Assembly (NCBI GenBank): GCA_964562405.1
Contig: CAZLTC010000006.1
Coordinates: 1,372 to 65,371 of the forward strand
Length of the DNA: 64,000 bases
Direction of reading: 5' to 3'
Source: an uncultured bacterium
Lineage (GTDB): Bacteria; Joyebacterota; Joyebacteria; Joyebacterales; Joyebacteraceae
Shown here piece after piece: positions 5,416 to 48,478 of the stretch (positions are counted from its first letter, which is position 1; each line of letters begins with the position of its first letter). The notes under the pieces were generated by a model. It saw nothing but the letters and a program-made list of their open reading frames with translations, did no database searches and was not told the origin of the DNA. A program made the translations under genes and the position numbers.

Positions 5416-5640
5416 CGGCTCGGCGATCACGAATGGAGCTTGTGGATGGGGGTCGGGCCGCATCGGTCCGGCCCCCGTCCGTCCAGAGGAGAAGCGGATG
5501 CGTCGTCGAATGGCGCCGGTCGCCCTCCTGCCCTAGGGTGAGCCACAACCGCCGTGGCGTGAGCGGCAGGCATCGCCGGTCGACCTGACCGCGCGCGGCA
5601 CTCCGTGGGCGCCCGAACCAGGCGAATCCGCAGGCCCTCC

Positions 5641-5669
5641 TTGCGCATCTAACCTGAATGTGGTAAACT
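5641..5669 (+). promoter_or_regulatory. Candidate promoter TTGCGC-N17-(TG)GTAAACT, extended -10, for the M6-like protease gene
   Basis: tTGtGGTAAACT extended -10; AT-rich island in a GC-rich context, 70 nt upstream of ATG 5739. Confidence 0.4.
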
Positions 5670-5738
5670 ATGAATTGGCGGCGGGTTAGCGGTAGTGACC
5701 CGGCGTTCGGCGGATTTGGCACATGCTTGGAGGAAAGT

Positions 5739-8585
5739 ATGCGTGGTCCAGCGCTCCCGGCGCCCGCGTTTGCCGTGTTGGTGGCCGGATTAATGAGCCT
5801 TGCAGCGGTCTCGGCGCTTGCCGCGCCGATGAACGGGGACATTGTGACGATTCGCCAGGCTGATGGGTCGTTCATTGACCTGGCGGTCTGGGGTGATGAG
5901 TTCTACGCGGTCGGGGAGACGCCGGACGGTTACACGGTCGTGCGCGATGACGTGACCGGCGTCTATTGCTACGCGAAGGTCTCGGCGGATGGGAACAAGC
6001 TCGTGTCGACGGGCATCCCTGCGGCGATCGGGCAGGTGCCCGCGGGCCTCTCGAAGCACGTCCGAGTCGACCGGGAGGCGGCTAGCGCGAAGGCCCGCGA
6101 GGTTAGGCAGGCCTTTGAGGCGCGCGAGCTGCAGGATTTGTCTGTTCTGCCCGAACCTCCCGGGCGCTCGCGCGGGACGTCGACGGGCAGCGTGACGGGG
6201 CTCACGCTCATCGTCGACTTCTCAGACGATGTGGGGACGATACCGCCCAGCTCCATCGATGACTTCTGCAACCTCGAGGGGTACACCGGATACAGCAACA
6301 ACGGTTCCGTGCGCGACTACTTCGATGACGTATCCGGAGGACTGCTCGACTATACCAACTATGTTTCGACCGCGTACTACCGTGCTGCGAACCCGAAGTC
6401 CTACTACACCGATCCCTCGGTCTCCTACGGGACCCGGGCCGTCCAGCTGATCAAGGAAGCGTTGAACGCTCTCGATGCGGCGGGGTTCGATTTCAGCGCG
6501 TACGACGCGGACGGGAACGGGAGCATAGACGCTCTGAACTGCTTCTACGCCGGCGCGACCTGGAACAACTGGGCCGAGGGCCTGTGGCCTCACTCAGGCT
6601 GGATGTCGTGGTGCGCGGACGGAGTGTGCACGCAGCGATATCAGATCTCGAACCTGGGAAGCTCTCTCAGGCTCGGCACGTTCGTGCACGAGAACGGCCA
6701 CATGCTGATGGGTTGGCCGGATCTCTATGACTACGACGGGGACTCGGCGGGCGTCGGCCAGTTCTGCGTGATGTGCTCGGTCGGACCGGGTACGAATCCG
6801 ATCGAGCCTTGCGCCTACATGAAGTACACGGCGGGTTGGGCCGACTTGTCGATGCCGACCGGCTACGAGAACGGCCTCTCCGCACCGAGTGCCGGGAACG
6901 TCGTCTACAAATTCGACAAGCCGGGCGCGCCCAACGAATACTACCTCGTTGAGAACCGGCAGAAGACCGGACGGGACAGCGCGATTCCAGACAATGGGCT
7001 TGCCATATGGCACGTCGACGAGAACGGCAGCAATGACTGGCAGCAGCGGACGCCGGACTATCACTACGAAGTCACTCTCGTGCAGGCCGACGGAGACTGG
7101 GATCTCGAGCACTACAACAACAATGGTGACAGCTACGACCTCTACGCGGCCACCGCGGAGACGGAGTGCACTCCCACCACATACCCCAACACCGACTGGT
7201 GGGACGGGAGCGAGTCGGGTTACTACTTCACGAACATCAGCTCGTCGAGCTCCGTGATGACGTTCGACTTCGCAGATGGTCCTCCGTTCAACCCCGAGTT
7301 CACCGCGCCGGTCTTCGCGTGCGAGATCGAGAAGTCGGGCTCGGCGACTTATCTAACCACTATCAGAAACCCCGGTAGTCTGTCCGGCAACGCCGACGTG
7401 GATATCGAGCAGGAGATCCTGCCCGACGGCGTCACGGACACCGACTGGACCGCCACCTACAGGCAGGTCGGCGGGCCGTGGCTCTCCACTCCCTCGTCCT
7501 TTTACCTTGGTCCGGGCGAGGAGATCGATATGGAAGTGAGGTTCGAGGACGGCATGGGTACCATGGAGGGGATGTGCCTGACGACGCTCACCGCGACCGT
7601 CAGCTCCGACCCGACGCTCTCGAACAAGGGATCGTTCGCGACGTTCGTGGACATGCCATGCGTGGCGATCATCGACGACGACAACGGAGCCGCGAACGAG
7701 ACATACCTCGCCACCGCCCTGGAAGATGCTGGATACTGCGCCAGGGTTTGGGACGCCTCGTCCCGCGGCCGGCCCAGCATCGAGGAGCTGTCGTCGTACA
7801 GCGCGGTCTTCTGGACGACGGCCGGAGGTGACGCCTCGTATCTGAGCGCGGACGACGAGCAGAACCTGATGGACTATCTCGACGGGGGTGGCGACCTCTT
7901 CATGTCCAGCATGGGCTACCTCACGGCCAGGACAGCACCCAACGCCTTCACCCAGGACTACCTGCACCTGGACTCGTGGCAGGACGACGTGGTCGCCTTC
8001 TCGGCGGCCGGGGTTGCCGGCGACCAGATATCCGATGGCATGAGTCTCATGCTCCTGGCGGGTCCCGTTTCCTCGAGTGGCTCCGATGCGATGGTGCTGG
8101 ACACACCGGCCGAGGCCATCTTCAGCGCGTCGTCGAACGTGACGGGCCTCAAGGTGGCGGAGGGCGACCACAAGATCGTCTTCCTCTCATTCGCCTTCGA
8201 GAACGTCAAGACCGCCACGGAGGACCCGAACAACCAGAGGACTCTCGTCTCCAGGGTCATGGACTGGTTCATGAACACGACGGGAGTCGATGATCTCACG
8301 ATCGGACGGCTCGCACTCGGGCACAACTACCCGAACCCGTTCAATCCGACCACGAACATCGCCTTCTCGGTGCCTGATGGGACCGAGCCCGTGGCTCTCC
8401 GGGTCTACAGCGTGGACGGCCGTCTGGTGAGGACGCTCGTGGATGGAGCTGTGCCTGCCGGGCCGCATACCGTGCTCTGGGACGGGACGAATGATGCCGG
8501 CGTGAGCGTGGCCTCTGGTGTCTACTTCGCGCGTCTGAGTTCGGCGGGAGAGACGAAGCAGACGAAGATGGCGCTCCTCAAGTAA
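5739..8585 (+). CDS. Secreted M6-like (immune-inhibitor-A-type) zinc metalloprotease with shared C-terminal sorting domain
   Basis: HENGH zinc motif followed by PDLYDYDG as in the M6 family; hydrophobic signal after M at 5739 (GGAGGAAAG upstream). The ORF-track start 5670 sits directly on the predicted -10 element and is unlikely. C-terminus NYPNPFNPTTNIAFSVP...GVYFARL...KMALLK. Confidence 0.75.
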   Translation: MRGPALPAPAFAVLVAGLMSLAAVSALAAPMNGDIVTIRQADGSFIDLAVWGDEFYAVGETPDGYTVVRDDVTGVYCYAKVSADGNKLVSTGIPAAIGQVPAGLSKHVRVDREAASAKAREVRQAFEARELQDLSVLPEPPGRSRGTSTGSVTGLTLIVDFSDDVGTIPPSSIDDFCNLEGYTGYSNNGSVRDYFDDVSGGLLDYTNYVSTAYYRAANPKSYYTDPSVSYGTRAVQLIKEALNALDAAGFDFSAYDADGNGSIDALNCFYAGATWNNWAEGLWPHSGWMSWCADGVCTQRYQISNLGSSLRLGTFVHENGHMLMGWPDLYDYDGDSAGVGQFCVMCSVGPGTNPIEPCAYMKYTAGWADLSMPTGYENGLSAPSAGNVVYKFDKPGAPNEYYLVENRQKTGRDSAIPDNGLAIWHVDENGSNDWQQRTPDYHYEVTLVQADGDWDLEHYNNNGDSYDLYAATAETECTPTTYPNTDWWDGSESGYYFTNISSSSSVMTFDFADGPPFNPEFTAPVFACEIEKSGSATYLTTIRNPGSLSGNADVDIEQEILPDGVTDTDWTATYRQVGGPWLSTPSSFYLGPGEEIDMEVRFEDGMGTMEGMCLTTLTATVSSDPTLSNKGSFATFVDMPCVAIIDDDNGAANETYLATALEDAGYCARVWDASSRGRPSIEELSSYSAVFWTTAGGDASYLSADDEQNLMDYLDGGGDLFMSSMGYLTARTAPNAFTQDYLHLDSWQDDVVAFSAAGVAGDQISDGMSLMLLAGPVSSSGSDAMVLDTPAEAIFSASSNVTGLKVAEGDHKIVFLSFAFENVKTATEDPNNQRTLVSRVMDWFMNTTGVDDLTIGRLALGHNYPNPFNPTTNIAFSVPDGTEPVALRVYSVDGRLVRTLVDGAVPAGPHTVLWDGTNDAGVSVASGVYFARLSSAGETKQTKMALLK

Positions 8586-8640
8586 CGCTGCCCGGCGTCC
8601 GCACCGCGGACGCTGGAACATCGCGAGTCGAGAATGCGGC

Positions 8641-8692
8641 TGTTGCATCGAGACGCCCTGTGCGAAAGCACGGGGCGTCTTCTTCAATGCAA
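8641..8692 (+). terminator. Long GC hairpin (inner stem GAGACGCCCTGTGC / GCACGGGGCGTCT, GAAA loop, outer arms GTTGCAT / ATGCAAC) followed by TCTTCTTC; terminator after the M6-like gene
   Basis: Inverted repeat seen directly; a second smaller hairpin lies at 8594-8612. Confidence 0.5.
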
Positions 8693-8806
8693 CATCGGGA
8701 AACGGTTGTCACACTTCACTCGTCTGGTACGGCACTTGCCCTGCTTGTGCACAATGTGTGTCAGGAACGTCTCACGTCACGAACGGGGGAAGGGAGATAC
8801 GGCGAG

Positions 8807-9901
8807 ATGAGAACATCGATCGTCCTAGTCTGCGCGGCAGTTCTGTGTGTCCCGGCGATCTGCGCCGGCCAGGAGTCCTACATCACGCTCGAGGAGAACA
8901 CCTGGGGCAACGCGCACAAGGAGTTCAACCTTGTGACGATACCCGATTGGATCGACAGCCTGGTGACGACCGGGTCGCCGCTCGTCATGGGGAAGCCAGG
9001 CCGGTCTCTGACGTTCGCGGACGGATCCGAAGAGGCGATACTCGCCGCGCTCCCGGCGTCGGGCCAGCCGGCCGTCCTGCCGGAGGACCTCGGCGACGCT
9101 CTGGTCGACTCGACGTGCGCCCTTCCCGAAGGGCTCCCGGCCAGCAAGAAGGGCAAGCTCAAGAACTCGCTTCTAGGTGAGACGATGGCGCTGGCCCTCA
9201 ACGCGAGGCTCGACCCGGAGCTGATAGACCTGGACGTCTGCTCCGTGATGATGACCGTAAACGTGCTGGCGGGCCCAGATGAGCTCTACGGTACAGAGGA
9301 CGACTCGCTGTGCGCGATGTGCGACACGATGACGATACGCATCCCGGAGGCCGTTCTGTCCGCGCTCCAGGATAGCATGGGCGTGGAACCTACCGTCGGG
9401 AACGTCCTCGAGTTCGCGAACATGGCGCTCGCGGGAGAGGGCACGTACGACGCCACCCTCAAGGGCGTATGGCACGCGGTGAAGAACATCAATCGTGGCT
9501 TCAAGAACTACCGCATGCTTGTCTACTGCGAGGGCGATACGGGCGGAGTGCCGATCGACATCAAGGGCGCGCCCGGCACTTCCGGAGGTCCTGAGGATCG
9601 CGCCGAGTCGATGGCGAGCGCCGTCGCGCTGTCGGCCTCGAGTCCGGTGAGCGACCGGGCGTTCGTCTACTTCACGGTGCCCGAGGCCAGCCGAGTGACG
9701 CTCTCTGTCTACAACGTCGCCGGCCGCGAGGTGGCGACTCTCCTGAACGGTCAGGTCTTCCAGGATCGCGCCACGGTGGAGATGGCCGCCGACAATCGAA
9801 GTGCCCTTCCGTCCGGAGTCTACTTCGTGAGAATGACGGCGGTTGGCGTCGCCAGCGGTGCCGAATACAGACAAACGGCCAAGATGCTGGTGGTTCGCTG
9901 A
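8807..9901 (+). CDS. Hypothetical secreted protein with divergent copy of the shared C-terminal domain
   Basis: Start MRTSIVLVCAAVLCVPAICAG (signal peptide) with GGGGGAAGGGAG upstream. C-terminus ...VYFTVPEASRVTLSVYNVAGREVATLL...GVYFVRM...KMLVVR. The ORF-track 5' extension from 8660 lacks an RBS/signal. Confidence 0.6.
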   Translation: MRTSIVLVCAAVLCVPAICAGQESYITLEENTWGNAHKEFNLVTIPDWIDSLVTTGSPLVMGKPGRSLTFADGSEEAILAALPASGQPAVLPEDLGDALVDSTCALPEGLPASKKGKLKNSLLGETMALALNARLDPELIDLDVCSVMMTVNVLAGPDELYGTEDDSLCAMCDTMTIRIPEAVLSALQDSMGVEPTVGNVLEFANMALAGEGTYDATLKGVWHAVKNINRGFKNYRMLVYCEGDTGGVPIDIKGAPGTSGGPEDRAESMASAVALSASSPVSDRAFVYFTVPEASRVTLSVYNVAGREVATLLNGQVFQDRATVEMAADNRSALPSGVYFVRMTAVGVASGAEYRQTAKMLVVR

Positions 9902-10006
9902 CCCCGGTCCAGCCCCTGACCCCGGTGCCCTCCTGGCACCTTCCTCGGCCGCCGCCCCCAACCTCGGGGCGGCGGCGCCTCGTTTACTTCCCCCTGCAGA
10001 TTCCCC

Positions 10007-10054
10007 TTGACAGCCTGCGACAGTCGTCGCAGAATATGTGTGACAGTTGTCGCG
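10007..10054 (+). promoter_or_regulatory. Promoter -35 (TTGACA) plus two GACAGTYGTCGC dyad repeats: candidate BlaI-family operator upstream of blaI-blaR1-like genes
   Basis: GCGACAGTCGTCGC (10017-10030, perfect palindrome) and GACAGTTGTCGC (10042-10053), 11 nt apart, between TTGACA and the ATG at 10077. Confidence 0.35.
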
Positions 10055-10076
10055 GACCCCCGAACAAGGAGTCGCC

Positions 10077-10538
10077 ATGAAGTCGCTTCCCAGCCTCTCG
10101 CGGTTCGAGCTTCAGTGCCTGCGGAAGCTCTGGAACCGCAAGGAGGGGACGGTCAGGGACATTCACGGAGACCTCGCCGACCCCCCGAGCTACTCGACCG
10201 TCAGGAAGATCATGGACCGCCTGGAGGAGAAGGGCGCAATAGAGCGCGTCCGCAAGGAAGGGAAGGCGTGGGTATACCGCTCCAGAGTCTCCCCACGGGA
10301 GATGCTCCGCAAAGAGATAAGGCAGTTTCTCGATGTGGCGTTCGATGGCTCGGCGGCTCCGCTCGTCGCGCAGCTGGCGCGTATGCAGGAGCTCACCGTC
10401 GAGGACTTGAGAGAGGTCGAGAGGGTCCTGGCTGGTGACAGAGCCGCCGCTTCCGAGACTGACTCCCACGACGAGAACGGTGTTCGCTCGCGCAGCGAAG
10501 GTCCGTCCACCGACGACAGGCACGAGGAACAGGTCTGA
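10077..10538 (+). CDS. BlaI/MecI/CopY-family winged-helix transcriptional repressor
   Basis: MKSLPSLSRFELQCLRKLWNRKEGTVRDIH...YSTVRKIMDRLEEKGAI...WVYRSRVS matches the penicillinase-repressor family. AAGGAG RBS before ATG 10077. Confidence 0.75.
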   Translation: MKSLPSLSRFELQCLRKLWNRKEGTVRDIHGDLADPPSYSTVRKIMDRLEEKGAIERVRKEGKAWVYRSRVSPREMLRKEIRQFLDVAFDGSAAPLVAQLARMQELTVEDLREVERVLAGDRAAASETDSHDENGVRSRSEGPSTDDRHEEQV

Positions 10539-10584
10539 CATATCGCGCGTGGTGGAAGGACCCCCGCGCGTCGGAGGTACGACG

Positions 10585-12099
10585 GTGAACGAGGTGCTCG
10601 AGTACGCGACCGGTTACTGGATGGCGGTTGCGTCACATCTGTGGCAGACGACCATGCTTATACTCTTCCTCTCGGGTCTCGCCCTGATCTTGAAGCGGGC
10701 GCCGGCGCGCGTGCTCAACGCGCTCTGGTGGGTCGCGCTGGCGAAGCTCGTCGTGCCCGTATCCATCGTCGCGCCCGCCGTCAGCCGCGCGCTGGGTCCA
10801 GTGCTCGATCGACTCGAACAGGGCTCGGCCCCGATGGAGGCCGTGACCGTCTGGCTGCACAGGGCCGGCCCCGTCCTGGATCCCATCGCGTCCGTCGCTC
10901 GTCCCACCCCGGGACTGCCCGGCGCGCTGGGTCTCGCACTCCTAGTCGCCTGGGCTGTCGGCGCCTCCTGGTTCGCCGTCGTCTGGCTGCGCTCGAGAGA
11001 CTGGAGGGTTGTCGGAGAGTCGCGGCCGATCGACGGTCTGTCGACCGCGGCAGCGCGCGGGGCGTTGGATGCGCTGCAAGGCACGCGCATACCGGCCGGC
11101 GCGGTGCTGGTCACGCGCGAGCCGCTCACGCCCTCGGTCGTCGGTATCTTCCGCCGCAGGATCATCCTCTCGGTGGACGTCATCGAGAGACTGGAGCCGC
11201 ATGAACTGAGGGCCATCCTGCTTCACGAGGACGCACACCGGCGCCGGTTCGAACCGCTGCAGGTGCTCGTCCAGAGGGTGGCCGTGGCCGCGTTCTACTT
11301 CTTCCCGCCGCTCTGGCCGGTGCTCCGGCGGCTGCGGGAGACCAGCGAGATGGCGTGCGACGAGGCCGCCGTTCGTCAGGGCGTGCGCCCGGAGCGTTAC
11401 GCGACCGCCCTGGCAAGGACTCTGAACATTGGACTGGAGCCTCTCGGGCTGGCCGTCGGCCTCGCGCGAGGGACTCCCACGCTCACGCGCAGCAGGTTTG
11501 AGCGGCTGCGGAACGAAGGGAGGTTCACACCGATGAGATGGCATTGGGCATGTCTCGTGGTGGCCGTGCTCGCTGCTGTTGCGACCGCCGTGCTTTCGGC
11601 CATTCCGACGATCGCAGGCGAGCCGGAGGGTGGGGCTACCTCTGTCAAGACCGAGGTCACGACCGACGAGAACGGCGACAGGGTCATGGAAGTGACCATA
11701 GAAGGAGAAGAGGAGGAAGAGGCCACGTACACGGTGACCCTTCTTCACAGCGAGCCCCCGGAATACCCGGAGGACGCAAAGACGGACGGCGTCGGCGGCA
11801 GGGTCGTTCTCGAACTCATGATCAATTCCGACGGGACAGTCGGCGAGGTCACCGCCGTCCAGGAAGTCGAGGACTACCCGTCGCTCACCGAGGCAGCGAC
11901 AGAGGCGGCCAGCCAGTGGACGTTCGAGATCCAGGGCGAGGTCGACGGTGAGCAGACGCTCGAGGTCATCGTTCCCATCGAGTTCAAGATGGATGGCGAG
12001 AAGACCAAGACGATCAAGATCACCGTCCCGGACGCGACCGAGGCGCCGGAGGCCCCCGGCGAGCCGGAGGAGCCCGACGAGGCGGACGCGCCCGAATAG
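10585..12099 (+). CDS. BlaR1-like M56 family membrane metallopeptidase/sensor fused to a TonB C-terminal-like domain
   Basis: Multi-TM N-terminus, HEDAH (HExxH) zinc motif. C-terminal EPPEYPEDAKTDGVGGRVVLELMINSDGTVGEV resembles the TonB_C fold, preceded by a Glu/Pro-rich linker. GTG 10585 with GGAGG 7 nt upstream; the ORF-track start 10435 overlaps blaI. Confidence 0.7.
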   Translation: MNEVLEYATGYWMAVASHLWQTTMLILFLSGLALILKRAPARVLNALWWVALAKLVVPVSIVAPAVSRALGPVLDRLEQGSAPMEAVTVWLHRAGPVLDPIASVARPTPGLPGALGLALLVAWAVGASWFAVVWLRSRDWRVVGESRPIDGLSTAAARGALDALQGTRIPAGAVLVTREPLTPSVVGIFRRRIILSVDVIERLEPHELRAILLHEDAHRRRFEPLQVLVQRVAVAAFYFFPPLWPVLRRLRETSEMACDEAAVRQGVRPERYATALARTLNIGLEPLGLAVGLARGTPTLTRSRFERLRNEGRFTPMRWHWACLVVAVLAAVATAVLSAIPTIAGEPEGGATSVKTEVTTDENGDRVMEVTIEGEEEEEATYTVTLLHSEPPEYPEDAKTDGVGGRVVLELMINSDGTVGEVTAVQEVEDYPSLTEAATEAASQWTFEIQGEVDGEQTLEVIVPIEFKMDGEKTKTIKITVPDATEAPEAPGEPEEPDEADAPE

Positions 12100-12183
12100 G
12101 GGGTGCCGAGGCAGTAGAGAGAAGAGCAGGGGCCGCTGCGGCTCCGGGAGGCCGGCAGATAGGGTCTCTCCGGGGCCGCGCGC

Positions 12184-13689
12184 TTGTGTTATGCTCCTTG
12201 TACGCAGTCGAGGTGGGTACAGCATCCAGGGGAGTGGACTCTGGGCAACTGGTACACCACGGAGGGGATATACAACTCCCTCCCGATACCGCTCCAGAAT
12301 GCCTGTGTGGCCTGGCGCGGGTGGCGCATATACCGGGAGCGTTTCGGCCGCAGGTACGAGGAGCTTGCCGAGTTCCTCGAGCGGTCCGAGACCGCGTCGG
12401 TCGACACGCACAGAGAGTACCAGGAGACGCGCCTGCGCGAGCTCATACTCCACGCGTATGAGAATGTGCCTTACTACCACGACGTCATGGACGCCCGCGG
12501 CCTCAAGCCGTCGGACGTCGTGTCGATAGAGGACCTGGCCAAACTCCCGATCCTGACGAAGAAGGACGTTCGCGAGGCAGGCGACAGGCTCGTCTCGCGG
12601 ACCGTCGACCCCAGGAAGCTCCGCGTGGCATGGACGTCGGCAACGAGCGAGACGCCTCTGCCGGTGAAGTGGGACCACTCCGTCGCCCTCGTGAACCATG
12701 CCAGCTACATGCGAGTGCGGCGGTGGGCAGGCGTTCCGTTCGGTCATCGTTACGCGACCATGCAGGGGACGCCGGTCGTACCCATCACGCAGCGCAAGCC
12801 TCCTTTCTGGCGTTCGAACCCTCTGTGGCACCAGGTGCTCTTCTCTCAGCTGCACCTGAGCGACGAGAGCCTGCCTCACTACGTGAGGAAGATGCGTGAG
12901 GCCGGTGTGGAGGATCTGGAGACGTACGCATCGTGCGCCTACGTGATGGCCAGGTATCTGGAAGATCGAGACGAGTACCTGCCGCTGAAGGCGGTCATCA
13001 CGACCGGCGAGCCGCTCTTCCCGGAGGAACGCGCTCTCATGGAGGAGAGGTTCGCGGCCCCGGTCTTCGACGCGTACGGACAAGCGGAACGCGTCATCTT
13101 CTCCTGCGACTGCGAGAAGCACGAGGGACATCACGTGTTTCCGGAGTACGGCATTACCGAGTTCGTCGACGGCGATGGTGACGTCCTGCCACGAGGCGAG
13201 TGCGGGTTCATGATCGGGACCGGACTCCACAACTTCGCGATGCCGCTCATCCGGTACGCGTGCGGAGACGTGGGGGCTCCGTCGGACCGGACCTGTTCGT
13301 GCGGGCGGACGCTGCCCATGCTCTCGACCCTCACCAGCAGGGCCGGTGACATTCTGGTGACGCCGGACGGCCGCATGGTCCCGCCCATCATGGTCACCTG
13401 GATCGTGAAGTTCCTGGAGGGCGTCCGCGACTGGCAGGTCGTCCAGGAGGCCGTGACCGAACTCCGCGTGCTGGTAGTCCGGGATGCGCCCGTGACGAAG
13501 GCCGAGTTCGAGGGCCTGAGCGGCTATCTCTCCAGGAGGCTCGGCCCGGAGGTCCACATCGAGATCGAGCCGGTGCCGGAGATACCACGCGTGGGCCGGG
13601 GCAAGACCCGCCACGTGATCTCAAAGGTGCCGCTGGTCTGGGGCGTTCCCAACCGGTCGAGCTGCGGCGCCGTTCCCGACTCTGAGTGA
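12184..13689 (+). CDS. Phenylacetate-CoA ligase / coenzyme F390 synthetase-like (CapK-like) adenylate-forming enzyme with degenerate P-loop
   Basis: N-terminal LPIPLQNACVAWRGWRIYRERFG and YENVPYYHDVMDARGLKPSDVVSIEDLAKLPILTKKDVRE are typical of the PaaK/F390-synthetase family. The position of SSGTTGKP is occupied by TSATSETP. TTG start is uncertain. Confidence 0.6.
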   Translation: MCYAPCTQSRWVQHPGEWTLGNWYTTEGIYNSLPIPLQNACVAWRGWRIYRERFGRRYEELAEFLERSETASVDTHREYQETRLRELILHAYENVPYYHDVMDARGLKPSDVVSIEDLAKLPILTKKDVREAGDRLVSRTVDPRKLRVAWTSATSETPLPVKWDHSVALVNHASYMRVRRWAGVPFGHRYATMQGTPVVPITQRKPPFWRSNPLWHQVLFSQLHLSDESLPHYVRKMREAGVEDLETYASCAYVMARYLEDRDEYLPLKAVITTGEPLFPEERALMEERFAAPVFDAYGQAERVIFSCDCEKHEGHHVFPEYGITEFVDGDGDVLPRGECGFMIGTGLHNFAMPLIRYACGDVGAPSDRTCSCGRTLPMLSTLTSRAGDILVTPDGRMVPPIMVTWIVKFLEGVRDWQVVQEAVTELRVLVVRDAPVTKAEFEGLSGYLSRRLGPEVHIEIEPVPEIPRVGRGKTRHVISKVPLVWGVPNRSSCGAVPDSE

Positions 13690-13765
13690 GCCCGGCGTCC
13701 CTCGACCGCGCGGACCGCAGCATCCGCAGCGCCGATCCGCCGGCCGCCACATCAGGACACCAATC

Positions 13766-14695
13766 GTGCGCGAACTCACCCACCTGAAGGTACTCGGGAT
13801 CAGATACCGGAACGCCCGTCCGGCGCCCGACGACGAGAGAGGCCTGGACGCCCTCCTGGCCTCCGGGGCATACGAGTCCGCGGGAGTTCCCTTCGACATC
13901 AGCGAGCCACGGTTGTCGGAGGCCGCTCAGTCAGCGCCCGAGAACGGGGAGCCCGGCGGCGACGAGGCGGCTCGTACCCTCGATGCGAAGCAGACGGGCG
14001 CGCTGTGCGGGCTCATCGCCGCTGATGTGGCGTCGGCCGTGAGTGCCGGCTCCGGCGTGCTCGTGGTCGGCGGGAACTGCTCTCACGGTCCCGGCGTCGT
14101 CGGGGGATTGCTGCAAGCATACGGGGCGGAGACGCGCGTCGGTCTCGTCTGGTTCGACGCGCACGGCGACTTCAACACGCCCCGGACGAGCCGGTCGGGC
14201 AGCCTCGGCGGCATGCCCGTCGCGGTCCTCGCCGGCCTGGCGTACCCTGACTGGAGGATGCGAGCCGGCGTCGCGCGGCCGCTCCCCGCCGAGAGCGTCC
14301 TGCTCGTCGGCTGCCGCGACCTCGACGAGGGGGAGGGGCGTCTCCTGGAGGAGTGCGGCGTGCGCGTGGCCGGAATGGGTGATGCGGGTGCGATGGTCGA
14401 CCTGGTGGAGCGCTCGGACGTGATCTGTCTCCACGTTGACATCGACGTGCTCGACGCTGCCCTTGTCCCGGGGCACAGGTCGGCAGTCGCCGAAGGTCCG
14501 TTGGTGGCCGGGTTGCTCGCCGCCATGGAGACGGTTCTCGCGACCGGGAAGGTCGCGGCTATCGCTGTCGTGTCCACATCCTCGGCCGGTGAACTTGGAC
14601 ACACTACCGTGGAGTCGGCGGCCGATGTCATCCGCGGCGCCCTCCGCGCGTGGCGATCGCACGGGTTGCCGGAAGCGGCCGGAGGCCGATCATGA
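13766..14695 (+). CDS. Arginase/agmatinase/formiminoglutamase-fold (ureohydrolase) protein with atypical first metal motif
   Basis: VVGGNCSHG (in place of GGDHS), WFDAHGDFNTP (DAHxD), HVDIDVLDAALVPG (DxDxxD) in the canonical order and spacing of the arginase family. GTG start. Confidence 0.65.
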   Translation: MRELTHLKVLGIRYRNARPAPDDERGLDALLASGAYESAGVPFDISEPRLSEAAQSAPENGEPGGDEAARTLDAKQTGALCGLIAADVASAVSAGSGVLVVGGNCSHGPGVVGGLLQAYGAETRVGLVWFDAHGDFNTPRTSRSGSLGGMPVAVLAGLAYPDWRMRAGVARPLPAESVLLVGCRDLDEGEGRLLEECGVRVAGMGDAGAMVDLVERSDVICLHVDIDVLDAALVPGHRSAVAEGPLVAGLLAAMETVLATGKVAAIAVVSTSSAGELGHTTVESAADVIRGALRAWRSHGLPEAAGGRS

Positions 14696-15855
14696 ACAGG
14701 AGACGCATGGCGCGTCTCGCGGTGACCGCGGTTGCCGCGTTGGCCATTCTGCTTCTCTCATCGCGCATTCACACGGCCTACCTCGCCGCGCTGGTGCTAG
14801 CTGAGTCCGCCAGCCCGGAGGTTGACGGGCCGATCGCGACGCGATTGCCCGACCCAGTGGTCGAGGGCGTGACGTTCGCAGGTCCCGGCAAGACGATGGT
14901 CGCCGATGTCTACAGACCGGAGACCGGCGGCAAGCATCCGGGCATAGTGCTCAGCCACGGCGTGGCCGCCAGGGGCAAGGACGACCCGCGCCTGGTGAAC
15001 TTCGCCGACGCGCTGGCGCGAGCGGGGTACGTTGCTCTCGTTCCCCAGTTCGTAAACATGAAGGAGTTCCGCGTCCGGCCCTCCGACATCGACGAGCTGG
15101 TGGCCTCCTATGAGTATCTTGAGTCCCGCCCGGACGTTGACCCCACTCGCGTCGGCCTGTTCGGCTTCAGCTACGCGGGCGGGCTGTCCGTGCTCGCGGC
15201 CGCCGACCCACGCATCGCCGACCGGATCCGCTTCTGCTTCCTGCTGGGCGGCTACTACGACCTCGTGAGCGTGGTCACGTACATGACGACAGGGATGTAC
15301 GAGCGGGACGGAACGTGGGTACACCTCGAGCCCAGGAACACCGGGCGCTGGGCGTTCCTCCTGAACAGCTCGGATCTCATCGAGGACGTCGCCGACCGTG
15401 AGACGATCGCCGCGCTCGCGCGCCGGAAGCTGGACGGTCCCGACTCCGACGTTTCTGACCTGGTGCGGGGGCTCGGGCCGGAGGGGGCGAGCGTGTACTC
15501 TCTCATGGTCAACACGGATCCGGAGCAGACCCGCCGTCTTGTCGAGGGTCTGAGTCCACGGGTGCGGCAGTACTTCGACGAGCTGACGCTTGCCGGACGC
15601 ATCGACGGCCTGCGCTGCCGTCTCATCATCGGGCACGGCCGTGACGACGACCTCATTCCGTATACTGAGAGCCTGAAGCTCGCGAGGAACGTCCCCGAGG
15701 GCACGGCCGTCCATCTGGCCATTCTTGAGTCGTTCCATCACGTCGACTTCAGGTTGGGTGGAGTGGGCGGGCCGCGCGGGCTTCTCGCCTCGCTTGCCGA
15801 GATAGGCAGGCTCTACTCGATCACGTACGATCTGCTTGCGCAGGGGCTCGTCTGA
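14692..15855 (+). CDS. Alpha/beta-hydrolase (dienelactone hydrolase / S9-like esterase-peptidase fold), probably secreted or membrane anchored
   Basis: N-terminal hydrophobic segment, GFSYAGG (GxSxG nucleophile elbow), later Asp/His candidates. ATG 14692 overlaps the previous stop (ATGA) with GGAGG upstream. Confidence 0.6.
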   Translation: MNRRRMARLAVTAVAALAILLLSSRIHTAYLAALVLAESASPEVDGPIATRLPDPVVEGVTFAGPGKTMVADVYRPETGGKHPGIVLSHGVAARGKDDPRLVNFADALARAGYVALVPQFVNMKEFRVRPSDIDELVASYEYLESRPDVDPTRVGLFGFSYAGGLSVLAAADPRIADRIRFCFLLGGYYDLVSVVTYMTTGMYERDGTWVHLEPRNTGRWAFLLNSSDLIEDVADRETIAALARRKLDGPDSDVSDLVRGLGPEGASVYSLMVNTDPEQTRRLVEGLSPRVRQYFDELTLAGRIDGLRCRLIIGHGRDDDLIPYTESLKLARNVPEGTAVHLAILESFHHVDFRLGGVGGPRGLLASLAEIGRLYSITYDLLAQGLV

Positions 15856-15870
15856 TGCACGGCTGGGTCG

Positions 15871-18360
15871 TTAGCGCAGGAGCACGAGCTTCGAGGAGGA
15901 GGCGCCGCAATCCGTCTCGAGCCTTGCGAAGTAGACCCCCGACGCCACGGGTCTGCCGCCGCCGTCGCGACCGTCCCACGCCACGGCAGACGCGCCGGCC
16001 GCGAACTCGCCCCCGGCGAGCGTGCGGACCAACCGCCCGGCGGCGTCGTAGATCGATACGCTGCCTCGCGAGCGCGAGGGGAGCAGAAGGGATATCGAGG
16101 TTGAAGGTCCGAACGGGTTGGGGTGCGTGCCGGAGATGCGCGGAGCGACCGGCAGGCCAGCCTCGGCCTCGTCATCCGGGACGTCTGACTGTGTCCCGTA
16201 GGCGAGCACGATGAGTCCCATCCCGGGCAGCTGCACCACGGCCGACTGTGCATACCCGTCCTCCGCGACCGCCTCCGAAGAGATGACGCCGGGGTTCTCC
16301 ATGCCGTTTCCGTCGTAGGCGGCGGCCTGGCTGTTGAGCGCCTCGTACCAGTCGCCGGCCTGCGGGAGGCCGATGCGGTAGCTTCCGTAGTCGGAGTCAC
16401 CGAAGTTCGCGAGGACGACCAGCACGTCTCCGGCTCCGCTCCAGCGCTGCCACGCGATGACGTTGCCGCTCTCGTTGAGGTGGAACACTTCATGTCCCGC
16501 GTCGGCGCGCAGCGCGTCGTTCCCCGTCCGCAGATGAATGAGGTCGCGGTAGTAGTTGAAGATGGGCGCATAGGTCGTCTTCTTGGACCAGTCGATGCGG
16601 TTCTCGTAGTCGGTCCCGAAGTCCGTGTCCTCGAGCCACTCGGTTCCCATCAACATGGCGGGGATGCCCGGAGCAGTCATGACGATACCCTGCGCGAGCT
16701 TGCTCCTGCCCTTGGCCCACTCGTCGTCATGGGGCGCCGTAGCGTCTATCGATTTGACGATGCGCTGGCCGCCGCTGGAGGGCCAGGCCTCGTCGTGCAG
16801 CTCGACGTAGTTCGTGACGTAGCCGTTCTCCAGATACTGGCCACCCCCGTTCACGATGTCCCTGATCTTCCATACCTCCGGGTCTCCATAGGCGGCGTCA
16901 AAGATCTCCTCGCGCAGGCGGTCCGTGAACACATCGTAGTACTGCGAGTCAAAGCCGGCTCCTCCCAGGCTGGTCGGGCGCGTCACCCAGGAGTTGTCCG
17001 GGAGCTGTTCGGCGATGGCGATCTTGTCGACCCACCTTCGGTCCATCTCGTCGTTCATGCGCTGCATGAGGCTCCAGCCCGAGGCCTCCTGAGGGTAGAT
17101 GTTCATGTAGCCGGTGGCGTCCATCCGGAACCCGTCGACCTTGAACTCCTCGAGCCAATAGAGAGCGCTGTCGGCAAGGTAGTCACGCACCGGCTCGTCG
17201 TCGAAATCGGGTTGACTGCCCCACGGTGTCTCGACCGCGGGGTCGTCGAAGTAGGCTTGCGTCCCGTCGTACTCCCAAAGGAAGTTGTCGCTGTAGGAGA
17301 AGTGGTTCCAGACGATGTCGAGGATGACGGCGATGCCGTAGGAGTGCAGGGTATCGATCATCTCCTTGAGCTCATCCGGCGTGCCGTACGCCCACTCCGG
17401 TGCCCACTGGGAGATCGGATTGTATCCGGCCGAGTAGTCCCAGGGGAACTCCGTGATCGGGTTCAGCATGACCGCGTTGACGCCCAGCTCGGAGAGGTGA
17501 GAAGCTCTCGCCGCTACCTCGGGGTAGCCGGCCGGGAAGGGCGCCGTGCCGTACGGGTCGTTCCTTCCGGAGAACGTGCCTACATGGAGCTGGTAAACGA
17601 CCATCTTCTCGAAGTCGGGTGTGTCGAAGTCGTCCATCTGCCAGTCGTACCTGAAACGATCCTCGATGTGGGTGTTGAGGTTGTCCCCGGAGTTCAGCGA
17701 CTTCCCGCGCGCGTCGGGCTTCCAGATCGAACCGTTGAAGTAGTACTTGTACATCTGGCGATTCGAGGCCGAGGGCACGTACGCGGCGAAGTACTCGCCG
17801 TCCTTCGTCATCGGGCTGGAGGTGCCCCAGCTGTTGAACTGGCCGCGGACGTAAGCAGTCGACGCACCGGGCGCCCACACCCGGAAGACCGCGCCGCCAT
17901 CGACCAGCGTCGAGCCGAGCGGGGCGTGCTCAAGGGTGTCAAAGTCGAGCACGAACCCGCCGTCGGTCGGAACACCGTCGGTCATCCCGCCGGCGCTCAG
18001 GTAGTCGACGTCCGCGCCGTCGGTCAGCTCGATGTAGTAGGAGAGGGTCGTGGACGACGTCGATGGGATCTGCGCCGTCCATACATCAAACGGCCCGCGT
18101 GCGGCTGTCTCAACGGCTCCGATCCAGGCGACGTCGCCGTCTTCGACATGTACGCGGGCCGAAGCTATGTCATCGTGGTAGGTCTGGAAGAGGATCTCGA
18201 AGCTCTGGCCGCTCATGGGGCACAGCGGCCTTCTGTCCTGCCACCAGACGTGAGATATGCCGTTCCACTCTATGTTGCCGTCGGGGCCTGCGGCCCCCGC
18301 AGTCATGCAAAGGGCGGCCACCAGGGCCGCTGCAGCTCCAGTGAGCCTGAGCGACTTCAT
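15871..18360 (-). CDS. Secreted GH13 alpha-amylase-family glycoside hydrolase with shared C-terminal sorting domain
   Basis: Signal MKSLRLTGAAAALVAALCMTAGAAG. GH13 motifs AVILDIVWNHFS, GFRMDATGYM, YVELHDE. C-terminus HPNPFGPSTSISLLLP...IYDAAGRLVRTL...GVYFARL...KLVLLR. Confidence 0.8.
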   Translation of the reverse strand: MKSLRLTGAAAALVAALCMTAGAAGPDGNIEWNGISHVWWQDRRPLCPMSGQSFEILFQTYHDDIASARVHVEDGDVAWIGAVETAARGPFDVWTAQIPSTSSTTLSYYIELTDGADVDYLSAGGMTDGVPTDGGFVLDFDTLEHAPLGSTLVDGGAVFRVWAPGASTAYVRGQFNSWGTSSPMTKDGEYFAAYVPSASNRQMYKYYFNGSIWKPDARGKSLNSGDNLNTHIEDRFRYDWQMDDFDTPDFEKMVVYQLHVGTFSGRNDPYGTAPFPAGYPEVAARASHLSELGVNAVMLNPITEFPWDYSAGYNPISQWAPEWAYGTPDELKEMIDTLHSYGIAVILDIVWNHFSYSDNFLWEYDGTQAYFDDPAVETPWGSQPDFDDEPVRDYLADSALYWLEEFKVDGFRMDATGYMNIYPQEASGWSLMQRMNDEMDRRWVDKIAIAEQLPDNSWVTRPTSLGGAGFDSQYYDVFTDRLREEIFDAAYGDPEVWKIRDIVNGGGQYLENGYVTNYVELHDEAWPSSGGQRIVKSIDATAPHDDEWAKGRSKLAQGIVMTAPGIPAMLMGTEWLEDTDFGTDYENRIDWSKKTTYAPIFNYYRDLIHLRTGNDALRADAGHEVFHLNESGNVIAWQRWSGAGDVLVVLANFGDSDYGSYRIGLPQAGDWYEALNSQAAAYDGNGMENPGVISSEAVAEDGYAQSAVVQLPGMGLIVLAYGTQSDVPDDEAEAGLPVAPRISGTHPNPFGPSTSISLLLPSRSRGSVSIYDAAGRLVRTLAGGEFAAGASAVAWDGRDGGGRPVASGVYFARLETDCGASSSKLVLLR

Positions 18361-18422
18361 CGAATCCCCTAACCCGGTTCACAGGAGCAGCCTCAAGACG
18401 TCATCTCTTGACGTCCTTAATC

Positions 18423-18451
18423 ATTATAGCGAAAGGGGTAGACGTTATCAA
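18423..18451 (-). promoter_or_regulatory. Promoter TTGATA-N17-TATAAT (minus strand) for the GH13-CTD gene
   Basis: Perfect -10 and 5/6 -35 with 17-nt spacer on the minus strand; AT-rich island. A second TATAAT lies at 18508-18513 (minus). Confidence 0.45.
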
Positions 18452-18670
18452 GTAGCGCTGTCCGGCAGGTGATCGCCGCGGCCGGCTCGAGGGTTCCACA
18501 TGCATTATAATTTAGCATGATGGATGTCGCGGTCTTGTTCTGTTGACGCGCTGTCTCTTACATGATATCGTAGCTCATGTTCGATGGTTCGGGCCGGGCC
18601 CGAGGTGGGGTCAGCGAGATCCCCCGAGGCCCTTCCGCCCCGGGTTCGAGTCGGTCGGGCGACGCAGAGC

Positions 18671-18702
18671 GAAAGGCCCTCCTCTTCCGAGGAGGGCCTT
18701 TC
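18671..18702 (-). terminator. Perfect 14-bp GC hairpin GAAAGGCCCTCCTC-TTCC-GAGGAGGGCCTTTC downstream of the BNR-CTD gene
   Basis: Inverted repeat seen directly, 54 nt after the minus-strand stop (18756). No U-tract, as is common in GC-rich genomes. Confidence 0.45.
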
Positions 18703-18755
18703 GCATCTCACTCTGTGCTGACGCCCTGACTGCCGCGGGTGAATGAGAGGGCGCC

Positions 18756-20067: not shown

Positions 20068-20114
20068 AGTACCCCCCGGGGTCCTGTCCTGGTTTGCGCT
20101 GCGGGACGCTCACT

Positions 20115-20126
20115 ACCATTATAGCA
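20115..20126 (-). promoter_or_regulatory. Extended -10 element aTGcTATAAT (minus strand) upstream of the BNR-CTD gene
   Basis: Perfect TATAAT with TGn, ~50 nt upstream of minus-strand ATG 20067; no good -35. Confidence 0.3.
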
Positions 20127-20145
20127 TACTGTGGGCGCGGCGCTC

Positions 20146-20174
20146 TTGACTCGCCGGACGCTCCCTGATAACAT
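20146..20174 (+). promoter_or_regulatory. Candidate promoter TTGACT-N17-TAACAT for the small ORF / yajC-def-fmt operon
   Basis: Read directly; divergent from the BNR-gene promoter 20-30 nt away. Confidence 0.35.
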
Positions 20175-20267
20175 CTCCCGGTTGAACGGTAACAACGTCC
20201 AGGAGGCCATCTGGCGTTCAAGAAGGCGAAGCGCAAGGACGAGAAGCCCGGTTCGGGGATCATACTC

Positions 20268-20471: not shown

Positions 20472-20483
20472 GAGGCGTGGCTG

Positions 20484-48429: not shown

Positions 48430-48478
48430 ACGGGGCCGTGCGCGCGAGCGCGAAGATGAGGCCTTCGAGGAAGATGCT

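What the first reader, a model, noticed from the sequence alone, without database searches (positions are those of the whole stretch)
10007..15855. BlaI/BlaR1-type sensor pair (M56 peptidase fused to a TonB-C domain) heading a three-enzyme module
A BlaI-family repressor (10077-10538) and an M56 BlaR1-like membrane protease (10585-12099; HEDAH motif, TonB C-terminal-like domain after a Glu/Pro linker) are followed on the same strand by three enzymes. These are an F390-synthetase/PaaK-like adenylating enzyme, an arginase-fold hydrolase and an alpha/beta hydrolase, with short or overlapping junctions. Two GACAGTYGTCGC dyads between the -35 element and the blaI start look like the operator. The arrangement suggests a proteolytic derepression switch of the beta-lactam-sensing type. 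It appears repurposed to sense an unknown periplasmic cue (TonB-C domains contact outer-membrane transducers) and to control a small acyl-adenylate/amidino-hydrolase pathway. This is a candidate uncharacterised signal-to-metabolism system.
Basis: partly seen in the sequence, partly recalled or inferred. Interest (0 to 1): 0.6.

Follow-up and report, generated by a model that had tools for sequence, protein, structure and literature searches.

The report
Self-regulated BlaI/BlaR-TonB sensor beside separate enzyme operon
An uncultured Eisenbacteria genome carries a repressor plus membrane-protease sensor pair of a widespread but untested type, which appears to switch itself on and off, while the three enzyme genes next to it appear to have their own promoter and are probably just neighbours.

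Summary
The window encodes a BlaI-family repressor (10077-10538) and an M56 protease fused to a TonB C-terminal domain (10585-12099). Both gluzincin motifs are intact. Three enzyme genes follow.

The two dyads are real operators by comparison across genomes. The 14-bp palindrome GCGACAnnTGTCGC lies upstream of blaI in all 19 related loci examined. In 16 of them there are two copies 22-25 bp apart, one in the -35/-10 spacer and one just after the -10.

The proposed control of the enzyme module is not supported:
- A conserved GC-rich hairpin lies between blaR and the first enzyme gene in all 8 syntenic genomes. It is followed by an invariant extended -10 motif (TGnTATGCT).
- No BlaI box occurs there or elsewhere in the 64 kb.
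- The arginase-like gene is missing in 3 of the 8 genomes.
- Outside this one Candidatus Eisenbacteria clade, blaI-blaR pairs and CapK-like genes have unrelated neighbours.

M56+TonB_C is already reported as the second most common M56 architecture, and it is uncharacterised. The best reading is an autoregulated two-gene sensor next to an independent capK-(arg)-hydrolase operon. This is a new member of a known kind and of modest interest.

The parts
10007..10035 (+). blaI promoter: -35 TTGACA (10007-10012), 17-nt spacer, -10 CAGAAT (10030-10035)
   Evidence: It is the only sigma-70-like site in 9600-16400, against 0.3 expected. The same TTGAC, box, CA[GCT]A[AT]T layout is present in 19 related loci.
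10017..10030 (+). BlaI box 1 (GCGACAGTCGTCGC), inside the -35/-10 spacer
   Evidence: PWM score 18.6 bits. The equivalent box is conserved in orthologous promoters. Its core fits the CopY/BlaI operator YKACANNTGTMR except for C instead of T in the TGT half (PMC7253601).
10040..10053 (+). BlaI box 2 (GTGACAGTTGTCGC), just after the -10 and over the likely transcription start
   Evidence: PWM score 20.6 bits, and it starts 23 bp after box 1. Two boxes 22-25 bp apart occur in 16 of 19 loci.
10077..10538 (+). blaI-like repressor, 153 aa (winged helix plus dimerisation helix, with a non-conserved acidic tail)
   Evidence: PF03965 E 1.6e-23. It aligns at residues 7-118 to MecI/BlaI 8-120, and the MecI cleavage pair N101-F102 aligns with Q99-L100. 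An AAGGAG Shine-Dalgarno lies upstream.
10585..12099 (+). M56 (BlaR1-like) membrane zinc protease fused to a periplasmic TonB_C domain, 504 aa. HEDAH is at aa 214-218 (nt 11224-11238), EMACD at aa 255-259 (nt 11347-11361) and TonB_C at about aa 383-469 (nt 11731-11991).
   Evidence: Pfam. The family profile matches BlaR1 8exs residues 37-328 at E 3.6e-8 and TonB C-terminal domains at E 3e-9. The AF2 model has pLDDT 81.8. Foldseek top hits are BlaR1 and TonB C-terminal domains, TM-score 0.77-0.87. H214, E215, H218, E255 and D259 are invariant and R307 nearly invariant in 43 homologues.
12137..12180 (+). GC-rich hairpin after blaR; probable terminator or 3'-end stem of the blaI-blaR transcript
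   Evidence: Strong hairpins sit at the same place in 7 loci, and 5 of 15 pairs show compensatory changes. L106 and L007 have clear T-tracts after the stem. The window copy has a poor T-tract.
12184..12195 (+). TTGTGTTATGCT: extended -10 promoter-like motif (TGn + TATGCT) for the capK operon
   Evidence: TGTG[G/T/C]TATGCT is invariant apart from the N position in all 8 syntenic loci, 8-12 nt after the hairpin. A similar TGTGGTACAAT precedes a different gene after blaR in L003.
12241..13689 (+). CapK-like (PaaK/F390-synthetase superfamily) adenylate-forming enzyme. The proposed start is the conserved CTG at 12241; the mechanical ORF starts at TTG 12184.
   Evidence: PF27533 CapK_C from precomputed Pfam. 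PaaK structures match at E 3e-22.
13766..14695 (+). Arginase-fold protein, 309 aa, with a non-canonical first metal motif (GGNCSH instead of GGDHS)
   Evidence: PF00491 E 6e-25. Alignment to Thermus arginase 2ef4. Orthologues share GGNCxH. The gene is absent in L005, L088 and L089.
14692..15855 (+). Alpha/beta hydrolase (dienelactone-hydrolase-like), 387 aa, with an N-terminal hydrophobic anchor or signal
   Evidence: DLH E 1.6e-6. It is 73-82% identical in syntenic loci. Its start makes an ATGA overlap with the arg stop.

Best explanation
The region holds two adjacent but separate transcription units.

Unit 1, 10007 to about 12180: an autoregulated blaI-blaR operon.
- A BlaI dimer binds two 14-bp palindromes (consensus GCGACAnnTGTCGC). 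One lies in the -35/-10 spacer and one lies over the transcription start. Together they shut off the pair's own promoter.
- The partner is a membrane gluzincin of the BlaR1 (M56) family, with its active site facing the cytoplasm.
- Where BlaR1 carries its penicillin-binding sensor, this protein carries a TonB C-terminal domain on a roughly 43-residue acidic tether in the periplasm.
- Inferred: a periplasmic or outer-membrane partner binds the TonB_C domain. The most likely partner is a strand such as a TonB box. This activates the protease, which cuts BlaI in the helix joining its DNA-binding and dimerisation parts (around Q99-L100) and relieves repression.
- The transcript probably ends at a conserved hairpin.

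Unit 2, about 12184 to 15855: a capK-like, (arginase-like), alpha/beta-hydrolase operon.
- It is read from its own extended -10 promoter.
- It is not a BlaI target.
- It encodes a CapK-type adenylate-forming enzyme. That family otherwise lives in polysaccharide-synthesis loci.

Shown here: domain make-up, catalytic residues, operator conservation, the hairpin and promoter motif, and the synteny pattern.
Inferred: the signal, the cleavage of BlaI, and the promoter and terminator activity.
For: Pair and catalytic competence.
- Domain assignments.
- The BlaR1 signature motifs H201ExxH and E242xxxD plus R294 (PMC9834060) correspond to H214EDAH, E255MACD and R307. The spacings are identical (41 and 52 residues), and the residues are invariant or nearly invariant in 43 homologues.

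Operators.
- 35 boxes from 19 loci give the consensus GCGACAnnTGTCGC.
- The layout of -35, box 1, -10, box 2 is kept down to 31% BlaR identity.
- The box core matches the experimentally refined CopY/BlaI operator.

Self-contained pair.
- blaIR pairs in L002, L003 and L091 also end in strong hairpins.
- They are followed by unrelated or convergent genes.
- In the literature, 96% of BlaR homologues lie within 5 genes of a BlaI.

Separate enzyme unit.
- Conserved covarying hairpin plus invariant TGnTATGCT in 8 genomes.
- No BlaI box in the blaR-capK gap of any of the 7 syntenic loci scanned (L106 was not scanned), nor anywhere else in the 64-kb window.
- capK/arg and capK/hydrolase start-stop overlaps in L090 and L005 show the enzymes form their own tightly coupled unit.
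- CapK homologues elsewhere sit beside GT4 glycosyltransferases (53 of 75 loci), Wzy_C, AsnB and polysaccharide deacetylase genes.
Against: - The block blaI-blaR-capK-(arg)-hydrolase is kept together in 8 genomes (capK 72-84%, BlaR 52-63% identity). It survives even where a gene was inserted between the hydrolase and the amylase (L106). Some functional link cannot be excluded.
- In the window itself the hairpin lacks a good T-tract, so read-through from blaR into capK is possible.
- The promoter and terminator are inferred from conservation only.
- No partner for the TonB_C domain was identified. The 64 kb holds no TonB-dependent receptor or ExbBD genes.
- The BlaI cleavage-site residues (N-F in staphylococci) are not conserved here; they are Q-L.
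Confidence: 0.7

Rival explanations
1. This is the first reader's model: one five-gene operon. BlaI represses a transcript running from 10036 to 15855. Cleavage of BlaI by the M56-TonB_C sensor switches on the CapK-like, arginase-like and hydrolase enzymes as the system's output.
For: - All five genes are on the same strand, and the block is retained in 8 related genomes.
- The hairpin in the window has a weak T-tract, so read-through is conceivable.
- No other BlaI target was found in the 64 kb.
Against: - A conserved hairpin plus an invariant extended -10 motif lie between blaR and capK in all 8 genomes.
- There is no BlaI box near capK.
- The arginase gene is lost in 3 of the 8 genomes.
- The convergent amylase is conserved just as well, so this is general collinearity.
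- blaIR pairs elsewhere stand alone.
- CapK relatives elsewhere lack blaIR.
Confidence: 0.15
2. The M56-TonB_C protein is mainly a TonB paralogue. It would be an energy transducer for outer-membrane transport whose M56 part is a membrane anchor or quality-control protease. BlaI would simply set its level, and no external cue would be read.
For: - The TonB_C domain is canonical: YP motif, TM-score 0.77-0.87 to TonB C-terminal domains.
- In L092-L094 a second BlaI-type dual-box promoter drives a 132-133 aa anchor+TonB_C protein that resembles the C-terminal module of BlaR. In those relatives the regulon therefore consists of TonB_C proteins.
- Bacteroides lists M56-TonB proteins among its TonB homologues (PMC10350073).
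Against: - No ExbB/ExbD genes lie nearby.
- There is no proline-rich rod before the domain, only a roughly 43-residue acidic linker.
- All catalytic residues of a BlaI-cleaving protease are conserved, and the gene is almost always paired with blaI. That argues for a signalling role.
Confidence: 0.1
3. The enzymes and the sensor are functionally linked without being co-transcribed. The CapK-like enzyme and the anchored hydrolase would make or remodel an envelope or secreted polymer, and the TonB_C domain would monitor its state or breakdown product.
For: - The block is retained in 8 genomes.
- The CapK family is associated with polysaccharide loci.
- The hydrolase has an N-terminal anchor or signal.
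Against: - No direct evidence supports it.
- The association is absent outside one clade.
- The neighbourhood as a whole is collinear, including unrelated genes.
Confidence: 0.05

Closest known systems
BlaI/BlaR1 and MecI/MecR1 of Staphylococcus aureus and Bacillus licheniformis
   Same: - A repressor of the Penicillinase_R family is paired with an M56 gluzincin membrane protease.
- The HExxH and ExxxD motifs and the conserved Arg have the same spacing.
- Two dyad operators with an ACA-NN-TGT core overlap the promoter.
- The gene pair is autoregulated.
   Different: - The sensor domain is a TonB C-terminal domain, not a penicillin-binding (SxxK) domain, so beta-lactams are not the expected signal.
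- Gene order is blaI then blaR.
- No divergent target gene such as blaZ is present.
- The cleavage-site residues are Q-L instead of N-F.
M56+TonB_C proteins catalogued in InterPro and Bacteroides thetaiotaomicron TonB1/TonB10
   Same: The domain architecture is identical. It is the second most common among about 15,000 M56 entries, and most such proteins lie next to a BlaI (PMC13492132; PMC10350073). The search here found 46,272 cluster representatives at E up to 1e-3, but that total counts any protein matching the M56 or the TonB_C part; 4,716 reach E <= 1e-10 and 171 reach E <= 1e-30.
   Different: None of these has been characterised experimentally. This one comes from Candidatus Eisenbacteria. 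It has an acidic linker and a Pro/Glu tail after the domain.
CenI/CenR of Clostridioides difficile and BlaI/BlaR of mycobacteria (non-beta-lactam BlaIR systems)
   Same: These are also BlaIR-family pairs whose sensor lacks a transpeptidase domain and whose signal is unknown.
   Different: Their C-terminal parts are short, disordered or different. None carries TonB_C, and they come from monoderm or mycolate envelopes.
FecA-FecR-FecI type trans-envelope signalling
   Same: This is a resemblance in logic only. A periplasmic domain of an inner-membrane regulator could read the state of an outer-membrane TonB-dependent transducer and release a cytoplasmic transcription factor through regulated proteolysis.
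   Different: The proteins are different: an anti-sigma factor with an ECF sigma, against an M56 protease with a BlaI repressor. No transducer partner is identified here.
PaaK / coenzyme F390 synthetase / CapK adenylate-forming enzymes
   Same: The first enzyme has the PaaK-like fold (PDB 2y4o, E 3e-22) and belongs to CapK_C PF27533.
   Different: It scores far below the PaaK and F390 equivalog cut-offs: 120 against 700 and 55 against 459 bits. Relatives sit in polysaccharide loci, not phenylacetate pathways.

Membership tests
BlaI/MecI/CopY repressors (Pfam PF03965) | Winged-helix DNA-binding domain plus C-terminal dimerisation helices | tested here: met
   PF03965 scores 83.6 bits against a cut-off of 22.6. 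The protein aligns over its full length to MecI 1sd6 and BlaI 1sd4.
BlaI/MecI/CopY repressors (Pfam PF03965) | Palindromic operator with a KACA-NN-TGTM core at the regulated promoter, often in two copies | tested here: met
   The consensus GCGACAnnTGTCGC comes from 35 boxes in 19 loci, with two copies in 16 loci. It was compared with RNYKACANNTGTMRNY. Binding itself was not tested.
BlaI/MecI/CopY repressors (Pfam PF03965) | BlaR-sensitive cleavage site (Asn-Phe in staphylococcal BlaI/MecI; P1' Phe almost invariant) | tested here: inconclusive
   The aligned residues are Q99-L100. A bulky hydrophobic P1' residue is retained, but not Phe (PMC9834060).
BlaR1 / peptidase M56 | Gluzincin motifs HExxH and ExxxD, plus the conserved Arg that pairs with the Asp | tested here: met
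   H214EDAH218, E255MACD259 and R307 have the same spacings as BlaR1 H201/E242/R294. They are invariant or nearly invariant in 43 homologues.
BlaR1 / peptidase M56 | Polytopic membrane scaffold with a cytoplasmic protease and an extracytoplasmic C-terminal domain | tested here: met
   The profile matches BlaR1 residues 37-328 at E 3.6e-8. The AF2 model has pLDDT 81.8. Foldseek gives 8exr_A TM-score 0.56 and rmsd 3.3 over 171 columns.
BlaR1 / peptidase M56 | Adjacent blaI gene | tested here: met
   blaI ends 46 nt upstream of blaR. The pair is conserved in every related locus with enough sequence.
Canonical beta-lactam sensor BlaR1/MecR1 | C-terminal penicillin-binding (transpeptidase, SxxK) sensor domain | tested here: not met
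   There is no PF00905 hit. The C-terminal domain is TonB_C. The NCBIfam blaR1_generic model scores 34 bits against a cut-off of 400.
TonB energy transducers | C-terminal domain with the TonB fold and YP motif | tested here: met
   PF03544 scores 53 bits against a cut-off of 24.6. P392, Y394 and P395 are conserved. TM-score to TonB C-terminal domains is 0.77-0.87.
TonB energy transducers | Single N-terminal anchor helix that couples to ExbB/ExbD, and a proline-rich periplasmic rod | tested here: not met
   The domain hangs from the last helix of an M56 scaffold on a roughly 43-residue acidic, Pro-free linker. No ExbB/ExbD genes lie in the 64 kb. Coupling to ExbBD encoded elsewhere is not testable here.
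Single BlaI-controlled operon including the three enzymes | No terminator or promoter between blaR and capK, or a BlaI box at a capK promoter | tested here: not met
   A conserved hairpin and TGnTATGCT lie in the gap in 8 genomes. No box scoring 13.5 bits or more is near capK in any of the 7 syntenic loci scanned (L106 was not scanned), and no further box above 9.5 bits occurs in the window.
Arginase/ureohydrolase (PF00491) | Six-residue binuclear Mn site (GGDHS His, DAHxD, DxD) | tested here: inconclusive
   DAHGD and DIDVLD are present. The first motif is GGNCSH, where the aligned His is replaced by Cys and a His follows two residues later. This is conserved in the 4 orthologues aligned (window, L006, L007, L090).
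PaaK / F390 synthetase equivalogs | Score above the NCBIfam equivalog cut-off | tested here: not met
   The best hit scores 120.5 bits against a cut-off of 700 (PaaK). F390 scores 55.5 against 458.7. The protein belongs instead to CapK_C PF27533.

The most novel reading that the evidence does not exclude
The BlaI/M56-TonB_C pair may be a trans-envelope signalling device of a kind not yet demonstrated. In this reading the TonB_C domain captures an exposed TonB-box-like strand of an outer-membrane or periplasmic protein. That contact, rather than a small-molecule ligand, triggers cytoplasmic proteolysis of the repressor. Two observations hint that the regulon is built around TonB_C modules themselves:
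- the BlaI-controlled mini TonB_C protein in relatives (L092-L094);
- the existence of M56 fusions to Plug and CarboxypepD_reg domains.
In this Eisenbacteria clade, partial read-through could additionally couple the switch to the CapK-like envelope enzymes.
Probability: 0.2. Interest if true: 0.7.

Novelty: new member of a known kind. Interest (0 to 1): 0.3.

Why it matters
Most BlaR-like sensors do not sense beta-lactams, and what they do sense is an open question. The TonB_C-bearing class is the largest such group with a recognisable sensor domain.

This locus does not open that question experimentally, because the organism is uncultured and no partner is visible. It does give three usable things:
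- a clean, well-conserved operator (GCGACAnnTGTCGC, two copies) and promoter layout for this class, which can be used to predict regulons in Eisenbacteria genomes;
- a caution that the adjacent enzymes should not be annotated as its output;
- a hint from relatives that TonB_C proteins themselves are the regulated products.

Tried and rejected
- TonB-box mimic idea. I considered that the periplasmic loop EL1 (residues about 59-104, conserved motif TVWLxRAxPxLDP) mimics a TonB box and docks on the protein's own TonB_C domain, as BlaR1 EL1 docks in its sensor. The AF2 monomer model predicts this loop as helices at moderate confidence, not a strand. There is no support, and coordinates and contacts were not available to test further.
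- Rfam scan of 9000-17000 at E up to 1: no riboswitch or leader between blaR and capK.
- BlaI boxes outside the blaI promoter: none in the 64-kb window. There are only isolated single sites in unrelated loci.
- TonB-dependent receptor, ExbB or ExbD genes in the window: none among 39 of the 43 predicted genes scanned.
- Exact-sequence look-ups of the window's BlaR protein returned nothing, so the source contig's own record could not be read.
- phmmer of the single BlaR sequence against PDB found only TonB domains. The family profile was needed to reach BlaR1.
- The metagenome scan returned only 19 confirmed loci, so the synteny statistics are small.


Full report
**What is in the sequence**

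- The first gene (10077-10538, AAGGAG Shine-Dalgarno, ATG start) is a Penicillinase_R family repressor. Pfam gives E 1.6e-23. It aligns from residue 7 to 118 with MecI and BlaI crystal structures.
- The second gene (10585-12099, GGAGG then GTG) carries Peptidase_M56 (E 1.2e-21) and TonB_C (E 4.7e-14).
- A profile of 25 homologues matches S. aureus BlaR1 residues 37-328 (E 3.6e-8) and many TonB C-terminal domains (E about 3e-9).
- An AlphaFold2 model has mean pLDDT 81.8. Its best PDB matches are BlaR1 and TonB C-terminal domains (TM-score 0.77-0.87 on the target).
- The BlaR1 signature defined by cryo-EM is H201ExxH, E242xxxD and R294 (PMC9834060). Here it reappears as H214EDAH218, E255MACD259 and R307. 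The spacings are the same (41 and 52 residues). These residues are invariant or nearly invariant in 43 homologues. The protease is therefore expected to be active.
- The linker between the last membrane helix and TonB_C is about 43 residues, acidic and without proline. The Pro/Glu-rich segment is a tail after the domain.

**The operator**

The only sigma-70-like promoter in 9600-16400 is TTGACA (10007), 17 nt, CAGAAT (10030-10035).
- GCGACAGTCGTCGC (10017-10030) lies in the spacer. GTGACAGTTGTCGC (10040-10053) lies just after the -10.
- Counting matches in the window alone is not significant. Comparison across genomes is decisive.
- I collected blaI-blaR loci from public assemblies. In all 19 distinct upstream regions the same layout recurs. 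Sixteen have two boxes whose starts are 22-25 bp apart, and three have one box. This holds down to 31% BlaR identity, while the flanking sequence is unalignable.
- The 35 boxes give the perfect palindrome GCGACAnnTGTCGC. Its core fits the experimentally refined CopY/BlaI operator RNYKACANNTGTMRNY (PMC7253601).
- A weight matrix built from them scores the two window boxes at 18.6 and 20.6 bits. Nothing else in the 64 kb scores above 9.5 bits, which is the level of shuffled sequence.

**Does the pair head the enzyme module?**

The evidence is against it, on four lines.
1. *The gap between blaR and capK.* From the blaR stop (12099) to the conserved N-terminus of the CapK-like protein is about 140 nt.
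   - In all eight genomes that share the arrangement (window, L005/L008, L006, L007, L088, L089, L090, L106), this gap contains a strong GC-rich hairpin, and 5 of its 15 pairs show compensatory changes.
   - The hairpin is followed after 8-12 nt by TTGTG[G/T/C]TATGCT. That is an extended -10 (TGn + TATGCT) in which only the N position varies.
   - In L007, L090 and L106 the hairpin is followed by a T-tract, as in an intrinsic terminator.
   - blaI-blaR pairs in other contexts (L002, L003, L091) also end in strong hairpins. L003 has a similar TGTGGTACAAT before its unrelated downstream gene.
2. *No BlaI box near capK.* This holds in every one of the 7 syntenic loci scanned with the matrix; L106 was not scanned.
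3. *The enzymes are coupled to each other, not to blaR.* There are ATGA or TTGA start-stop overlaps for arg/hydrolase in the window, capK/arg in L090 and capK/hydrolase in L005. The arginase-like gene is simply missing in L005, L088 and L089.
4. *The adjacency is confined to one Candidatus Eisenbacteria clade.* In that clade capK is 72-84% identical and BlaR 52-63% identical.
   - There the convergent GH13 amylase downstream is conserved just as well. Synteny therefore reflects general collinearity.
   - blaIR pairs at 31-54% BlaR identity are followed by unrelated or convergent genes.
   - CapK homologues at 67% identity or less have no blaIR, arginase-like or hydrolase neighbour.

The retention of the block in eight genomes, including L106 where another gene was inserted before the amylase, leaves some room for a looser functional link or for read-through. 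I put the single-operon model at about 0.15.

**What the enzymes are**

- *First enzyme.* It belongs to the CapK_C family (PF27533, precomputed Pfam) of the PaaK-like adenylate-forming superfamily (PDB 2y4o, E 3e-22). It scores far below the PaaK and F390 equivalog cut-offs. In 75 loci of homologues from many phyla, the recurrent neighbours are polysaccharide-synthesis genes:
  - GT4 glycosyltransferases (53 loci);
  - Wzy_C (21 loci);
  - asparagine synthase (16 loci);
  - polysaccharide deacetylase (14 loci).
- *Arginase-fold protein.* It keeps DAHGD and DIDVLD but has GGNCSH in place of GGDHS, as do the three orthologues aligned with it (L006, L007, L090).
- *Hydrolase.* It is dienelactone-hydrolase-like and has an N-terminal hydrophobic anchor.

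**How the pair most likely works**

By homology with BlaI/BlaR1:
- The repressor dimer occupies both boxes and blocks RNA polymerase at its own promoter.
- The membrane protease, when activated through its periplasmic domain, cuts the repressor in the helix between its two domains. MecI N101-F102 aligns with Q99-L100 here.
- This relieves repression.

The signal is unknown. Because the sensor is a canonical TonB C-terminal domain, the most economical guess is that it binds a strand of a partner protein, as TonB binds a TonB box. This step is inference.

Two side observations fit a system built around TonB_C modules.
- M56 proteins are also fused to Plug and CarboxypepD_reg domains of TonB-dependent receptors.
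- In relatives L092/L093 and L094, a second dual-box BlaI-type promoter drives a 132-133 aa protein made of an anchor plus TonB_C. This protein resembles the C-terminal module of the neighbouring BlaR.

No TonB-dependent receptor or ExbBD gene lies in the window.

**Comparison with what is known, and novelty**

- The M56+TonB_C architecture was noted in TonB surveys and in Bacteroides (PMC10350073).
- It was recently counted as the second most common among about 15,000 M56 entries, with 96% of BlaR homologues near a BlaI (PMC13492132).
- My search of 1.84 billion cluster representatives found 46,272 matches at E up to 1e-3 and 4,716 at E up to 1e-10.
- None has been characterised experimentally in the literature I could search.

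The locus is therefore a new member of a known, uncharacterised kind. It is not a beta-lactam sensor, because the defining penicillin-binding domain is absent. It should not be filed as a TonB energy transducer either.

**Verdict**

- Observation: confirmed.
- Interpretation: partly supported. The sensor pair and the operator hold up. Control of a metabolic module does not.
- Interest: 0.3.

Noticed in passing
window 12184-12310: The CapK-like gene probably starts at a CTG codon (12241). In all 7 syntenic loci examined a CTG sits two codons before the conserved N-terminus NWYTTEG..YNSLP..QNA, 6-8 nt after a GGAGG-like Shine-Dalgarno. In L005 an in-frame stop leaves it as the only possible start. 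The public annotation (460 aa, GTG 12307) cuts off about 22 conserved residues. The TTG at 12184 lies inside the promoter-like motif.
   Followed up: partly
window 13766-14695; L006, L007, L090: The arginase-fold protein has GGNC[S/V/A]H in place of the GGDHS metal motif in the four orthologues aligned (window, L006, L007, L090; the L106 copy was not aligned), while DAHGD and DIDVLD are kept. It evolves fast (49-58% identity, against 72-84% for its neighbours), and the gene is absent from 3 of 8 syntenic genomes.
   Followed up: partly
L094 6640-7175; L092 1860-2406 (= L093): In relatives with 38-40% BlaR identity, a second dual-box BlaI-type promoter drives a 132-133 aa protein made of a hydrophobic anchor plus TonB_C (Pfam E 1e-21 to 1e-23). 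It lies directly upstream of blaI, which there has a single box. The small protein aligns from residue 1 with the last helix, linker and TonB_C of the adjacent BlaR.
   Followed up: partly
window 2074-9901, 15871-20735, 33739-36273, 54274-61740: The window is rich in large secreted proteins, most of them hydrolases, that end in FlgD_ig / Por_Secre_tail sorting domains. They include an M6-like protease, a GH13 amylase with CBM48, a papain-like protease, a C25 gingipain-like protease and a DUF7901 protein. A pullulanase (2074-5415) lies among them but showed no such tail domain in Pfam. Together they suggest a polymer-degrading lifestyle with a T9SS-like export signal.
   Followed up: no
window 880-1914 and 48326-49438: There are two RsgA-type GTPase genes in one 64-kb stretch (Pfam E 9e-50 and 2e-52).
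   Followed up: no
window 11990-12099 (BlaR residues about 470-504): A Pro/Glu-rich, low-confidence tail follows the TonB_C domain instead of preceding it as in TonB. Its length varies widely among homologues, from 0 to about 100 residues.
   Followed up: no
L006 2203-3053; L106 2813-5497: In two of the syntenic genomes a LysR-type regulator and a Toluene_X (FadL-like outer-membrane channel) gene lie just upstream of blaI. In L006 the calls are short, so the genes are perhaps degraded. L003/L004 also carry a Toluene_X gene, 8.5 kb downstream.
   Followed up: no
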